Source: the human T2T-CHM13v2.0 reference genome, Homo sapiens. Taken from it: DNA of 64,000 nucleotides. Location: assembly GCF_009914755.1 (NCBI RefSeq), contig NC_060932.1. One strand, given 5' to 3'. Below are positions 47,981 through 59,545 of this stretch, piece by piece. A model generated the notes under the pieces. It ran no database searches. It saw nothing but the letters and a program-made list of their open reading frames with translations, and was not told the origin of the DNA. Position 1 is the first letter of the stretch. Each line of letters opens with the position of its first letter. Position numbers and translations under genes: made by a program.

Positions 47981-48355
47981 CTTTTCTCTTTTTTTTTTTT
48001 TTTTTTTTTTTGAGACAGAGTCTCGCTCTGTCGACCAGGCTGGAGTCCAACGGCCCGATCTCGGTTCACTTCAACCTCTGCCTCCTGGGTTCAAGCAATT
48101 CTCCCGCCTCAGCCTTCCGAGTAGCTGGGATTACAGGCGCGTACAACCACGCCCAGCTAATTTTTGTATTTTTAGTAGAGATGAGGTTTCGAGGTTTCAC
48201 CATGTTGCCCAGGCTGGTTTTGAACTCCTGGGCTCAAGCGATCTGCCCTCCTCAGCCTCCCAAAACGGTCGGATTATAGGCGTGAACCACCGCACCCAGC
48301 CGCCTGGAATTTTTAAGCCTCAAGTTTGTTCCACTTTGAATGCAAGAAGCCACCT
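47981..48355 (-). repeat. Inverted repeat copy 1: CpG-rich AluJb/Sz-like element (47989-48301) plus 54 bp unique flank
   Basis: reverse complement matches 59185-59545 except 2 substitutions and poly-A length (23 vs 9). Confidence 0.98.
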
Positions 48356-48364
48356 CATAGGTAA

Positions 48365-48530
48365 GAATATTATTGAACATAAGGCATGGCACAAAATACT
48401 TTCTAAGTGATTATTGTCCTTGTTATACCCACTTTATAGATAAAAGATAAAGTCATTTGTCCAGAAGGCAAAGCCAGGAGTGGCTACTTAATTTTTCTTG
48501 ACCCCAAAGTGTATACTCTTTCCATAACTT
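48365..48530 (-). mobile_element. MIR fragment
   Basis: tattattgaac...ttatacccactttatagat...ttgaccccaaagt. Confidence 0.45.
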
Positions 48531-51513
48531 CCTGTTGTCTCCCATGGACCCACCTCAAAATCAGAGGTGTCACAGTGGTGGTTTAACAACCAAAGTTTCA
48601 AATTAGCCATATACATTCTGGGGGCTTCCAAGATCCCATACTGGGGTCTCCACCCTTATTTCCTTGCTCTCAGAAGTAATGTGTGATGAACCTGTTCTTT
48701 GGAGGAAGTACCTTCCTGTGGGCTGGCTGGCACACTGTCCCAGGCAAGGCCAGCCTGGGGATGTTCTAGATGTTCACTCTTTTTTCTAGTTTCAATCCTG
48801 CAAACTCAGTGGACAGAAGGAGCTAGGGACTTGAAAGCATGAAAGCATTGGATTAGAAAGAAAACTACAAATGCAGTCTGTGTAACAGAATCATGGTATT
48901 TTCATATTGAGAAGGCTCTTTTTGATTCAGCCATTGTTTAGTTAGACCTGTACAAGTTGAATTCGAACTTATTTTCCCACTGTTACTTTTCTAGGTTTGG
49001 TAAAATGTGTGAATGGCTGTGGATCCCATGAAGGTTTTTAAGTTAGAGCACAAAACGTCCTAAAAAGCACGTGACTGGCCTTGCCAGGCAGAGCAGGATG
49101 TAAGGAAAAAAAAACAGAAACTCAGGGAAATGCAAGCATAGATTCCAATTCTATTTGTTATCTTGCAGCAATGTATTTATGGTAGATGGTTTCCACATTA
49201 CCTACTAAACCCAGACGGCAGGAAAAAAAAAAAAATGAATGAACACAGCTCTTCCAAGCTAAGAATATGACTCCAATCAGGTCAGTAAATAGTCAGGAAA
49301 CTACGGTTTTATCAATTCCTGATTTGTTTTGATTCAAAACACTGACCCCCAAATGCTTCCTTTTTTTACCCTCTAAATCTGAAGCTGGTGAAAAATGAAG
49401 TGATTGATAATAAAGCTTTCACTACTTCCAAAAGAAAAAAATAAATGAAAGCAATTTGAATAAAGGGCCATTTACTCTCCTATTCTTTGAATACATTTAT
49501 TCTATACTGATAAGCACACATTTACGCTAGAGAGAAGATGGTCTTCAGAATAAGCACTTACTAGGATTAAATTTACATTATCTGTCTAAATGCACACACA
49601 TTTTAGACTGGCAGTAGTATATGTTGTGCTCACATTTTGCAAACACTGGAAAGGTGAGTTTTTAAAAATACAGTTTTACAACTCTAGAAGTTGGGAGAAA
49701 TATAATTTCCTAATACTAGCTATAGGAGGAAAACAGAAAAGTGACCTATTTTAATGACAAAGCATTCATAATATATCTTCCCCGTACTTAAGAACCAGCT
49801 TCATCTCAGCCCATCACCAGAAAGGAGAGAAATCTCGTGTATAAATAATTAGGCAATCTCAAAATGAGTCTGCAGATGCTCTGAGATAAGCCTGCTGACA
49901 AAGTCACAATGACAGCTTGCTAACGTGTTCACAGGACATCAGCTTCTCTTAAAAGCTGCTTTCGGAACGATCAGCTGGGTTCCTACTGAGTTAAAACACA
50001 AGCATTCGGAGGCAGCTTGTGTTCAACAGCTACATAAATCTATTAATCCAACTAGAGGGGTGGGGGAAACTGAAGATTACATCTCAAAGGCCCTCAAGGC
50101 CTGTGTTTCAAGGAGTAGCAAGATAAATGCAACCAATATAAAATAAAGCTTATCAGTTGTTGGTGTTTTAGATGATGCTACCTTTCAGGGCTGGGGAGTC
50201 AGGAAAGTACATGTCTGAGAAAAATGACCATATGTGGCAACTTGAGCACTGTTTGCCACTGGGCATCAAAATATCTTACCGTGTGCTCATAAGAGTGGAT
50301 CTAAACTCAAACTGTAGTTACATGAGCAAAAGAGCCCCCTGATGAGCTGGTGAAGTTCTCCGTTCAACTACAGCAAAATGGACTGAGCTCCCATCACATG
50401 CCAGGTGTTGGTCTAAGAGACGGATTTGCCGAGGTGACTACACGGAGGTCCCTGCCTTCCAGGGGCATGTGTCATGGTGGGAAATCCAATGAGAAAACAG
50501 TTCGCTTCCACACAATGTGGTGGGTACTTAAAGAGAAGTGTTCTGTGGGAGCCCAGAGCAGAAAAGTCCTGCCTAGAGGTCAGGAAAGATGACCAGAAAT
50601 GACGCCTGAGCTGACTGATGGTCTGGAAGCACCCAGCGAAGAAGAGCAATGATGTTTGCTAAGGCAACGTCGGTACTGTTTCTCCCCAAAGGCATGGGAT
50701 TTTATACACACCACCTGCTTTTCATATAGAAAACTCATGAGGAAGCTCCTCACATTGTTTTTAACAGCAAGTTCAAAACAATCTTATTATATGATTATTG
50801 TCTGCCAGAGAACACCTGGGCATGAATGCTTCCTGAGTTCATTCCAATTCATGACTAAGAACGGTGGGATACAGCACAGAGCCTTAGGGCTGATGCCATG
50901 AAATAAATTCATTGTTGGAGGCTGCTGACCACCCCAAGTCTAATTCTGGGGTAGGTCTCCATTCTACCCTGCAATCACTCCCCTCACTGACAAACGGGCT
51001 AAGCTGCTATATTTGCCAAGTTGCAGCTACCAAAGTAAGTAAATTCAATCCTTGGGCTTGGAGTCAGCAGAGGCATGGGGCCAGCCAGAGACCCAGCTTC
51101 CATAGCACAGGCTGCTGTTCCTAAGCCCTCTGCTCTCACAAGCCTGGGTGCCACACATTCAGCAATAGGAAATTTGATGGCTCCTGGGACTAAGGGTAAA
51201 AAAAGGCTGAAGAAAAGGGAAAATTAATTTTAGCAAACTAGTAGCTACCATTTATTGGTACTTCTTGATGCTAAGTGTTTTACATTCTTTTCCTCAAGTA
51301 ATCTTGGCACATCTAGGGTTCAAGCACTAAGAGCATTCTCCAATTCCTACCAAGGCAGATACTTGGGTAAACCCTGTACAAAGTCTCAGTCTTACATGAA
51401 GCAGAGAGGACTCAGTAAAAAGTTCCAGTAAAGCCAGCTTTCTGGTCTGCAAGAAATGAGATCTAGAGTATCAAATCCATCGTTTTCCAGGGACCAGAGC
51501 ACTCTTTAGAATA

Positions 51514-58745: not shown

Positions 58746-59087
58746 GCTGGTCATGGTGTCTCATGCCTGTAATCACAGCACTTTGGGAGGCTGAGGCAGG
58801 AAGATCACCTGAGGTCAGGAGTTCAAGACCAGCCTGGGCAACATGGTGAAACCCCACCTCTACTAAAAATACAAAAATTAGCTAGGCATGGTGGTGTATG
58901 CCTGTAGTCCCAGCTACTCAGGAGGCTGAGGCAGGAGAATCACTTGAACTCGGGAGGCAGAGGTTGCAGTGAGCCAAGATCGTGTCACTGCACTCCAGCC
59001 CGGGCAACAGAGCGAGACACCATCTCAAAACAAAAACAAAAACAAAAAAAACCAACAAAAAACAAAAACAAAACACACACACACAAA
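58746..59087 (+). mobile_element. AluS with CAAAA/CA tail
   Basis: TSD aactt(a/g)gaact. Confidence 0.96.
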
Positions 59088-59184
59088 ACAACTTGGAACT
59101 AGCTGGGTAAAGAATATAGTGGCCTAAGGAAATCGTTATTAGCCCCAATTTATAAACAATTAAATTGATGACAGAAAGAGGAGC

Positions 59185-59545
59185 AGGTGGCTTCTTGCAT
59201 TCAAAGTGGAACAAACTTGAGGCTTAAAAATTCCAGGCGGCTGGGTGCGGTGGTTCACGCCTATAATCCGACCGTTTTGGGAGGCTGAGGAGGGCAGATC
59301 GCTTGAGCCCAGAAGTTCAAAACCAGCCTGGGCAACATGGTGAAACCTCGAAACCTCATCTCTACTAAAAATACAAAAATTAGCTGGGCGTGGTTGTACG
59401 CGCCTGTAATCCCAGCTACTCGGAAGGCTGAGGCAGGAGAATTGCTTGAACCCAGGAGGCAGAGGTTGAAGTGAACCGAGATCGGGCCGTTGGACTCCAG
59501 CCTGGTCGACAGAGCGAGACTCTGTCTCAAAAAAAAAGAGAAAAG
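59185..59545 (+). repeat. Inverted repeat copy 2: 54 bp unique flank plus Alu (59239-59537) plus GAGAAAAG
   Basis: near-identical to the reverse complement of 47981-48355, including the private 8-bp duplication gaaacctc-gaaacctc. Confidence 0.98.

What the first reader, a model, noticed from the sequence alone, without database searches (positions are those of the whole stretch)
47981..59545. Recent ~360-bp inverted duplication bracketing 10.8 kb
Seen: 47981-48355 and 59185-59545 are reverse complements. They differ at two bases (48227/59313 and 48105/59435) and in poly-A length (23 vs 9), about 99.4% identity outside the tail. This is not ordinary Alu similarity: the Alu is old and heavily diverged, both copies share its private mutations (including an 8-bp tandem duplication gaaacctc), and identity extends 54 bp into unique sequence 5' of the Alu and 8 bp (GAGAAAAG) past the tail. 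Inference: a recent local DNA-level copy, possibly lineage-specific or polymorphic, which repeat masking would hide as two unrelated Alus.
Basis: partly seen in the sequence, partly recalled or inferred. Interest (0 to 1): 0.85.

Follow-up and report, generated by a model that had tools for sequence, protein, structure and literature searches.

The report
Recent inverted copy of Alu-containing intron piece
A 375-base piece of an EXT1 intron (an old Alu plus a little flanking DNA) was recently copied once, in reverse orientation, to a spot 10.8 kb away, most likely as a patch used to mend a broken chromosome; it is a real but ordinary kind of small structural change.

Summary
47981-48355 and 59185-59545 are reverse complements with 2 substitutions in 352 positions and a T/A run of 23 versus 9. 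Identity runs 54 bp beyond the Alu 5' end and 8 bp beyond the tail. In the whole T2T assembly the flank was found only at these two places.

I tested whether the repeat marks an inversion of the 10.8 kb between the arms, with duplicated breakpoints. A MIR element seemed split across the two candidate breakpoints. Two independent tests reject that: strand-asymmetry classifiers put the interval in the same long-term orientation as 10 of 10 flanking blocks, and an ancient MIR is continuous around arm 1.

Arm 1 is the probable source. It is an Alu nested in a MIR nested in another MIR, and a MIR motif runs unbroken across its inner boundary. Arm 2 is the derived copy. Its junctions are blunt, with no target-site duplication, no microhomology and no L1 endonuclease site. 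That fits double-strand-break repair with a templated patch, either cDNA from EXT1 intronic RNA (favoured) or DNA-templated synthesis.

Age is roughly 3-6 My, with wide error. Lineage specificity and polymorphism could not be tested. It is a new member of a known kind, of low to moderate interest.

The parts
47981..48355 (-). Arm 1, probable source copy (375 bp). Reading the Alu sense strand (window - strand, the EXT1 sense strand): 54-bp flank 48355-48302, Alu body 48301-48012, A-run of 23 at 48011-47989, then GAGAAAAG at 47988-47981.
   Evidence: Source status: the MIR motif CCACCT|CATAGG is continuous across 48355|48356 (10/12, reached by 50 of 20000 random 12-mers). Removing the Alu unit restores a MIR spanning positions 8-185, against 8-78 if the whole arm is removed.
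59185..59545 (+). Arm 2, probable derived copy (361 bp): 54-bp flank 59185-59238, Alu body 59239-59528, A-run of 9 at 59529-59537, GAGAAAAG at 59538-59545. It sits between 59184 and 59546.
   Evidence: Both junctions are blunt, with no direct repeat of target sequence and no TTTT/AA-like site (read). The 12-mer across its inner junction matches MIR at only 5/12.
48356..59184 (.). The 10,829-bp interval between the arms. It is in its long-term (ancestral) orientation, not inverted.
   Evidence: Alu-masked T/A skew is -0.059, against -0.053 +/- 0.028 in 10 of 10 flanking blocks. The k-mer orientation log-likelihood ratio is +40 to +48 nats, against +27 to +31 (sd 8.5-12) for 10 of 10 held-out blocks. 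10 of 11 one-kb bins are positive.
47804..47871 (-). Left half of an ancient minus-strand MIR ('MIR-c', about positions 164-221 of my profile).
   Evidence: nhmmer hit at hmm 154-221. Smith-Waterman z 3.7, 1 of 300 shuffles. It joins continuously with 48390-48484.
48390..48484 (-). Right half of MIR-c (about positions 54-163). Together with 47804-47871 it brackets a 518-bp nested insert (47872-48389) made of MIR-a plus the Alu.
   Evidence: The joined halves align to MIR 54-219 with SW 207; 2 of 600 random joins reach this.
47872..47980 (+). 5' part of plus-strand 'MIR-a' (profile positions about 8-90), the outer flank of arm 1.
   Evidence: nhmmer E 0.0016 in the four-flank search. SW z 2.2, 8 of 300.
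48302..48389 (+). Probable 3' continuation of MIR-a (about positions 95-185): the 54-bp flank inside arm 1 plus 34 bp beyond it.
   Evidence: Anchored continuation test 66 of 1500. Boundary 12-mer 50 of 20000. Length 109 + 88 = 197 bp fits a MIR spanning 8-185. The support is moderate only.
59124..59184 (-). MIR core fragment ('MIR-d', positions about 88-152) abutting the inner end of arm 2. It is the cause of the misleading split-MIR appearance.
   Evidence: SW z 5.1, 0 of 300 shuffles. Anchored test 1 of 1500.

Best explanation
An old Alu had long ago inserted into a MIR element (itself nested in another MIR) in EXT1 intron 1. That is arm 1. A few million years ago a 375-bp stretch was copied once and placed in reverse orientation 10.8 kb away. 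The stretch runs from 54 bp upstream of the Alu to 8 bp past its A-tail. The copy sits between 59184 and 59546 and is arm 2. The DNA between the arms was not inverted. Arm 2 has blunt junctions and none of the hallmarks of L1-endonuclease retrotransposition. I therefore infer that it was laid down as a templated patch during repair of a chromosomal double-strand break by end joining. My preferred source of the patch is cDNA reverse-transcribed from EXT1 intronic RNA, with synthesis starting at the end of the A-rich tail. That would make it a 'class 2 templated sequence insertion' or non-classical Alu insertion. Shown: the copy, its exact limits, its uniqueness in the assembly, the un-inverted interval and the junction features. 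Moderately supported: the direction arm 1 to arm 2. Inferred only: break repair, and RNA rather than DNA as the template.
For: The copy is real and recent: (2 differences against 38 shared private Alu changes). Only two copies. No inversion: strand asymmetry; MIR-c is continuous around arm 1; 2 of 600 random joins match it. Direction: the MIR motif is unbroken across 48355|48356 at 10/12, reached by 50 of 20000 random 12-mers, but is 5/12 at the arm-2 junction; MIR 8-185 restored when only the Alu unit is removed; 54 bp plus following sequence continues flank A, 66 of 1500. Break-repair patch: read directly, the arm-2 junctions show 0 bp of microhomology, no direct repeat and no T-rich endonuclease site (the nicked strand would read ...GCAG/GCTCC...). 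For an RNA template: the arm-1 Alu is in the sense orientation of EXT1 (hub annotation: EXT1 on the - strand), so the segment is present in the pre-mRNA. One end of the copy lies at the end of the A-rich tract (A23 GAGAAAAG). The A-run length changed from 23 to 9. Passages read in PMC5110952 describe class 2 insertions as having no TSD and no poly(A) requirement, showing end-joining features, and using intronic sequences as templates. Passages read in PMC5402677 describe non-classical Alu insertions as having no TSD and no ORF2p site, with non-Alu sequence co-inserted in over half of the cases.
Against: The outer flank of arm 1 ends at MIR position about 90, and the reverse complement of the inner flank of arm 2 starts at MIR position about 88-94. 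Anchored tests give 62 of 1500 and 1 of 1500, and the join scores SW 185, reached by 10 of 1000 random pieces. On my reading this complementary tiling is a coincidence in a MIR-rich patch, perhaps helped by a target-site deletion. I estimate the chance at a few percent, and it remains uncomfortable. The expected continuation of that MIR on the other side of arm 2 is not detectable (439 of 1500). No Alu target-site duplication is significant at arm 1 (9/13; 618 of 2000 shuffles), so the direction rests on MIR continuity alone. Non-classical Alu insertions are described as typically 3'-truncated and lacking the tail, whereas arm 2 keeps a full tail. Nothing in the sequence proves an RNA intermediate. 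Nearness (11 kb) and inverted orientation are also what replication template switching produces. The last few hundred bases at each end of the interval carry no usable orientation signal.
Confidence: 0.5

Rival explanations
1. Same event and direction, but the template was DNA. During replication or break-induced synthesis the nascent strand switched to the nearby opposite-strand template, copied 375 bp of arm 1 and returned (FoSTeS/MMBIR-type templated insertion). Alternatively a synthesis-dependent copy was ligated into a break.
For: The donor is only 10.8 kb away and the copy is inverted. Both features are typical of local template switches (my knowledge, not tested). No retrotransposition hallmarks are present. 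The interval is untouched.
Against: Both junctions have 0 bp of microhomology (read), whereas microhomology is the usual signature of template switching (recalled). This model gives no reason why one end of the copy sits at the end of the Alu's A-rich tail.
Confidence: 0.25
2. Inversion of 48356-59184 with an inverted duplication created at the breakpoints (staggered breaks or replication-based), arm 2 being at the original place. This was my own working hypothesis.
For: Flank A (MIR 8 to about 90) and the reverse complement of 59124-59184 (MIR about 88-152) tile one MIR with only a 4-bp gap. The join scores SW 185, against 102-146 for the other three candidate junctions, and 10 of 1000 random pieces reach it. 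Anchored tests give 1 of 1500 and 62 of 1500. The pattern is the one described for Drosophila inversions in PMC1885836 (passages read: 17 of 29 inversions carry inverted duplications at their breakpoints).
Against: The interval's strand asymmetry matches its surroundings. The Alu-masked T/A skew is -0.059, where about +0.05 is expected if flipped. The k-mer log-likelihood ratio is +40 to +48, where about -30 is expected if flipped. 10 of 11 one-kb bins are positive. An ancient minus-strand MIR is continuous across the 518 bp that contain arm 1 (SW 207; 2 of 600). Under the inversion model the inversion itself would have had to assemble that MIR.
Confidence: 0.05
3. Opposite direction: arm 2 is the original and arm 1 is the inserted copy.
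For: Arm 1 carries a pure 23-base A-run, unusually long for an Alu about 13% diverged from the local majority (38 of 290; the expectation is my knowledge). No significant Alu target-site duplication is found at arm 1. At 48105 arm 2 carries the Alu-majority base.
Against: The MIR motif is continuous across 48355|48356 but not across the arm-2 junction. With the whole of arm 1 removed, the nested insert in MIR-c is a MIR head (8-78) followed by unmatched sequence, and B does not continue flank A (699 of 1500). At 48227 arm 1 carries the majority base.
Confidence: 0.12
4. A more complex multi-breakpoint local rearrangement. A roughly 60-bp MIR piece was moved and inverted next to arm 2, an inverted copy of the unit took its place, and the bulk of the interval stayed put.
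For: It would explain both the MIR tiling and the un-inverted interval. The ends of the interval are uninformative for orientation.
Against: It needs four novel junctions with exact re-use of breakpoints. It conflicts with the MIR motif that runs across 48355|48356.
Confidence: 0.05
5. Artefact or convergence: an assembly error duplicated one Alu locus, or two independent Alus were homogenised by gene conversion.
For: None found. Reads could not be examined.
Against: The arms differ by two substitutions and 14 bases of homopolymer, and they sit in different unique flanks. Identity extends 54 + 8 bp beyond the Alu with sharp ends, which conversion between unrelated Alus does not produce.
Confidence: 0.03

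Closest known systems
Class 2 templated sequence insertions (TSIPs; review PMC5110952, passages read)
   Same: A stretch templated from elsewhere in the genome is inserted without a target-site duplication, without a terminal poly(A) requirement and without an L1 endonuclease site. The review interprets these as patches in end-joining repair of a double-strand break, and lists intronic sequences among the templates.
   Different: The template here lies only 10.8 kb away in the same intron, rather than at a distant site. The junctions are perfectly blunt, so the microhomology, microdeletion or filler bases named as typical are not seen (a deletion cannot be judged without an empty allele). Polymorphism is untested.
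Non-classical (endonuclease-independent) Alu insertions, as summarised in PMC5402677 (passages read)
   Same: An Alu-containing insert with no flanking TSD and no ORF2p cleavage site, carrying non-Alu sequence along with the Alu.
   Different: Those are described as typically 3'-truncated and lacking the poly-A tail. Arm 2 contains a full-length Alu with its tail plus 8 bp beyond it and 54 bp of 5' flank. It looks like a piece of host transcript or DNA that happens to contain an Alu, rather than an Alu transcript.
Inversions flanked by inverted duplications of breakpoint sequence (staggered-break model; PMC1885836, passages read)
   Same: Two inverted copies of a few hundred bp of formerly single-copy sequence bracket a segment. 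The median duplication size reported there is 321 bp.
   Different: Here the bracketed segment is not inverted, so the defining feature fails.
Classical Alu retrotransposition by target-primed reverse transcription
   Same: An Alu with an A-tail appears at a new site.
   Different: There is no TSD and no endonuclease site. 54 bp of 5' flank and 8 bp beyond the tail are carried along. The Alu is an old, mutated copy (38 of 290 departures), unlikely to be an active source.

Membership tests
Classical TPRT Alu insertion | Flanking target-site duplication | tested here: not met
   No direct repeat flanks arm 2 (sequence). The Alu-level TSD test is not significant at either arm (arm 1 618 of 2000 shuffles, arm 2 1907 of 2000).
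Classical TPRT Alu insertion | L1 endonuclease-type target (TTTT/AA-like) at the 3' junction | tested here: not met
   Read: the strand that would be nicked reads ...TATAGCAG/GCTCCTC...
Classical TPRT Alu insertion | Insert consists of the element alone and ends in its poly-A | tested here: not met
   54 bp of 5' flank and 8 bp beyond the A-run are included.
Non-classical (endonuclease-independent) Alu insertion | No TSD, no ORF2p site, often with non-Alu sequence co-inserted | tested here: met
   Criteria taken from PMC5402677.
Non-classical (endonuclease-independent) Alu insertion | Typically 3'-truncated, lacking the poly-A tail | tested here: not met
   Arm 2 has the complete Alu 3' end and an A-run of 9.
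Non-classical (endonuclease-independent) Alu insertion | Deletion at the insertion site in most cases | not testable with these tools
   This needs an empty allele or an outgroup. The MIR fragment ending exactly at 59184 with no detectable continuation beyond arm 2 (439 of 1500) is compatible with a deletion.
Class 2 templated sequence insertion | No TSD, no cryptic poly(A) signal or terminal poly(A) requirement | tested here: met
   Criteria from PMC5110952.
Class 2 templated sequence insertion | End-joining marks at the junctions (microhomology, microdeletion, non-templated bases) | tested here: inconclusive
   There is 0 bp of microhomology and no filler. A microdeletion cannot be judged without the empty site.
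Class 2 templated sequence insertion | RNA-derived template | not testable with these tools
   The only compatible facts are that the source is sense to EXT1 and that the copy ends at the A-rich tract.
Inversion with breakpoint inverted duplication | Segment between the duplicates is inverted relative to the ancestral order | tested here: not met
   strand asymmetry; MIR-c is continuous around arm 1.
Template-switch (FoSTeS/MMBIR) insertion | Microhomology at the switch junctions (criterion recalled) | tested here: not met
   0 bp at both junctions.
Non-allelic gene conversion between Alus | Identity confined to the homologous repeat | tested here: not met
   Identity extends 54 bp and 8 bp into non-Alu sequence and then stops abruptly.
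Segmental duplication (conventional definition, recalled: at least 1 kb and at least 90% identity) | Length of at least 1 kb | tested here: not met
   The arms are 375 and 361 bp.

The most novel reading that the evidence does not exclude
The copy is human-lineage-specific or still polymorphic. It creates a 352-bp, 99.4% perfect inverted repeat inside one EXT1 intron, far more perfect than ordinary inverted Alu pairs (70-84% here). That repeat could form an almost flawless long double-stranded RNA in the pre-mRNA, a strong ADAR or innate-sensor substrate. It could also act as a substrate for recurrent flipping of the 10.8-kb segment. Alternatively, the complementary MIR halves at the two arms are no coincidence and record a multi-breakpoint local rearrangement of a type not yet catalogued.
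Probability: 0.1. Interest if true: 0.5.

Novelty: new member of a known kind. Interest (0 to 1): 0.25.

Why it matters
On its own it matters little. It lies deep in a 300-kb intron, no exon lies between the arms, and no function is indicated. It is a clean, datable example of a sub-kilobase templated insertion that repeat masking would file as two unrelated Alus, and such events are probably under-counted. It would make a good presence/absence marker for hominid or human population history. It also carries a methodological lesson. Complementary halves of an old repeat at two breakpoints looked like proof of an inversion, and strand-asymmetry and nested-repeat checks overturned that reading using a single genome.

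Tried and rejected
1. Inversion with duplicated breakpoints. I built a MIR profile from 30 genomic copies and scored the four candidate ancestral junctions. The inversion junction scored best, but strand skew, a k-mer orientation classifier, 1-kb bins and the continuous outer MIR contradict it.
2. Own-genome DNA searches with the unique flanks, meant to find paralogous empty sites, returned only the query itself. That search does not reach diverged repeats.
3. nhmmer with the MIR profile was too insensitive for the short flanks: only flank A was reported, of four flanks and likewise in the joined candidates.
4. The Alu target-site duplication as an indicator of direction was not significant at either arm.
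5. An anchored test of the 34 bp right of arm 1 was uninformative both ways (1854 and 973 of 2000).
6. Homology-guided invasion between the two MIRs was considered and dropped. By eye, the last 20 bases of the two relevant flanks share only about 3 positions.
7. Literature. No report of this locus appeared in a search for EXT1 + inversion + inverted repeats + breakpoints (2 papers, both irrelevant). EXT1 occurs 0 times in the main text of either human polymorphic-inversion paper checked, and their supplements were not opened. These few searches do not show that the event is unpublished; large structural-variant catalogues were not searched.
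Full report
OBSERVATION. Arm 1 is 47981-48355 and arm 2 is 59185-59545, and they are reverse complements. The repeat finder reports 360 nt at 99% complementarity with 10,829 nt between the arms. The other 14 inverted pairs found in 46000-62000 are ordinary Alu-Alu matches at 70-84%. Inside the unit there are two substitutions (48105 and 48227, both C in arm 1 and T in arm 2 read as reverse complement). The homopolymer is 23 in arm 1 and 9 in arm 2. Read in the Alu's sense, each arm is 54 bp of flank, a full-length Alu, the A-run, then GAGAAAAG, after which similarity stops abruptly on both sides.

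I compared the Alu body with the majority base of 47 other Alu copies in the 124 kb around the locus. The two arms share 38 departures in 290 positions and differ from each other at 2. This is an old Alu that was copied recently, not two similar Alus. A search of the whole assembly with the flank-containing 86-mer found only these two places. That tool detects only near-identical sequence.

A HYPOTHESIS THAT FAILED. Two inverted copies of formerly single-copy sequence bracketing a segment is the signature of an inversion formed with staggered breaks. It is described for 17 of 29 Drosophila inversions, with a median duplication of 321 bp (PMC1885836, passages read).

The flanks seemed to support this. 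I built a 229-position MIR profile from 30 genomic MIR copies retrieved with a short core motif. The outer flank of arm 1 matches MIR positions 8-78 and extrapolates to about 90 at the breakpoint. The reverse complement of the inner flank of arm 2 matches MIR 94-152, starting within 6 bases of the junction (z 5.1, 0 of 300 shuffles). Joined computationally, they give one MIR with a 4-bp gap (SW 185). The other three candidate ancestral junctions score 102-146, and 10 of 1000 random pieces reach 185. Anchored tests gave 1 of 1500 and 62 of 1500.

Two independent lines contradict the inversion.

First, strand asymmetry. Introns carry a long-term strand asymmetry: A-to-G exceeds T-to-C on the non-template strand (PMC2817419, passages read). 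With Alus masked, all 10 of 10 independent 10.8-kb blocks in 113 kb of flanking EXT1 intron have a negative T/A skew on the + strand (mean -0.053, sd 0.028). The interval has -0.059, and all five of its 2-kb bins are negative. A k-mer orientation classifier (k = 2-5), trained on the flanks and cross-validated, scored 10 of 10 held-out blocks positive (means 27-31 nats, sd 8.5-12). It scored the interval +40 to +48 as it stands. At 1-kb resolution 10 of 11 interval bins are positive, against 92% of 111 outside bins. Only the terminal few hundred bases are uninformative. A recently flipped segment should show the opposite sign.

Second, a continuous outer MIR. The minus-strand MIR piece at 47804-47871 and the minus-strand MIR at 48390-48484 join into one continuous element (MIR 54-219, SW 207; 2 of 600 random joins). 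So 47872-48389 is a 518-bp nested insert in an ancient MIR, and the DNA on both sides of arm 1 is still in its ancestral relative orientation. Under the inversion model the rearrangement itself would have had to assemble that MIR.

I therefore reject the inversion (about 5% left). [quoted passage not shown] This is the main result against my final reading, and I cannot fully explain it.

WHICH ARM IS THE SOURCE. The Alu's own target-site duplication is not significant at either arm, so it does not help. The nested structure does.
- If only the Alu unit (47981-48301) is removed, the insert in the outer MIR becomes 197 bp aligning to MIR 8-185. If the whole arm is removed, only MIR 8-78 aligns.
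- The 54-bp flank plus the following bases continue flank A from the right coordinate (66 of 1500). The sequence after the arm does not (699 of 1500).
- The 12-mer CCACCT|CATAGG spanning 48355|48356 matches MIR 144-155 at 10 of 12, at the coordinate expected if the 54 bp is native there. 50 of 20000 random window 12-mers reach this. The corresponding 12-mer at arm 2 matches at 5 of 12.

So arm 1 looks like an Alu in a MIR in a MIR with all junctions ancestral, and arm 2 is the derived copy. I put this direction at about 80% given a simple copy.

MECHANISM. Read, arm 2 is flanked by ...TATAGCAG| and |GCTCCTC... on the strand complementary to the Alu. There is no direct repeat of target sequence. 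There is no microhomology with the donor's flanks (...GGGCTT| and |CATAGG...) and no filler. There is nothing resembling the T-rich L1 endonuclease site. Classical retrotransposition is therefore excluded, and the blunt joins point to end-joining repair of a double-strand break with a templated patch.

Two known classes fit. One is class 2 templated sequence insertions: no TSD, no poly(A) requirement, end-joining features, intronic templates, interpreted as cDNA patches (PMC5110952, passages read). The other is non-classical Alu insertions: no TSD, no ORF2p site, non-Alu sequence co-inserted in over half of cases, often with a target deletion, but typically lacking the tail (PMC5402677, passages read).

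I favour an RNA-derived patch for three reasons. The source is in the sense orientation of EXT1 and therefore present in its pre-mRNA. One end of the copy coincides with the end of the A-rich tract (A23 GAGAAAAG). The A-run length changed. None of this is proof. A DNA template switch explains the nearness and the inverted orientation equally well, but it does not explain the lack of microhomology or the end at the tail.

AGE. Two differences in 352 positions is 0.57% (Poisson 95% interval 0.07-2.05%). With recalled rates of 1.0e-9 and 0.5e-9 per site per year, that is 2.8-5.7 My, with a range of 0.3-20 My. If copying itself was error-prone, the event could be younger. At 48227 arm 2 carries the derived base. 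At 48105 arm 1 carries a CpG and arm 2 the Alu-majority T, so the polarity is ambiguous.

COMPARISON AND VERDICT. It works like a class 2 templated insertion or endonuclease-independent insertion. It differs in that the template is local and the Alu is complete with its tail. It is not a TPRT insertion, not a segmental duplication by the usual size threshold, not Alu-Alu gene conversion and not an inversion footprint.

I found no report of the locus in the few searches made. Large structural-variant catalogues and supplements were not examined, so I do not claim it is unpublished. It is a new member of a known kind, with interest about 0.25. The boldest reading still open (about 10%) is that it is lineage-specific and functionally relevant as a near-perfect intronic inverted repeat, or that the split-MIR pattern records a more complex rearrangement.

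Noticed in passing
window 47804-48484: Three-level nesting of repeats. A minus-strand MIR (47804-47871 and 48390-48484) is interrupted by a plus-strand MIR (47872-47980 and 48302-48389), which is interrupted by the Alu of arm 1.
   Followed up: yes
window 58750-59094: Another Alu (antisense on the + strand) 90 bp from arm 2. It has a recognisable target-site duplication AGTTC[C/T]AAGTT on both sides and a long interrupted T/G-rich tail with a (GT)n stretch at about 59040-59095. It forms 83%-complementary pairs with arm 1 and lies in the same orientation as arm 1.
   Followed up: no
window 1-16000 versus 30000-50000: The GC skew of the + strand changes sign across the window (about +0.045 in the first 15 kb, about -0.045 around 30-50 kb), while the T/A skew stays negative throughout. 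The cause was not examined. The RefSeq enhancer-blocking element at 12325-13439 lies in the positive part.
   Followed up: no
window 59672-59779: A further minus-strand MIR fragment (profile positions 86-199, z 2.4, 3 of 300 shuffles) about 130 bp beyond arm 2. It shows how MIR-rich this patch is, which bears on the coincidence discussed in the report.
   Followed up: partly
window 2437-2642, 13512-13724, 61381-61568: Well-preserved MIR copies found by the home-made profile (E 3e-14, 1e-20, 8e-07). They served as positive controls for the profile.
   Followed up: no
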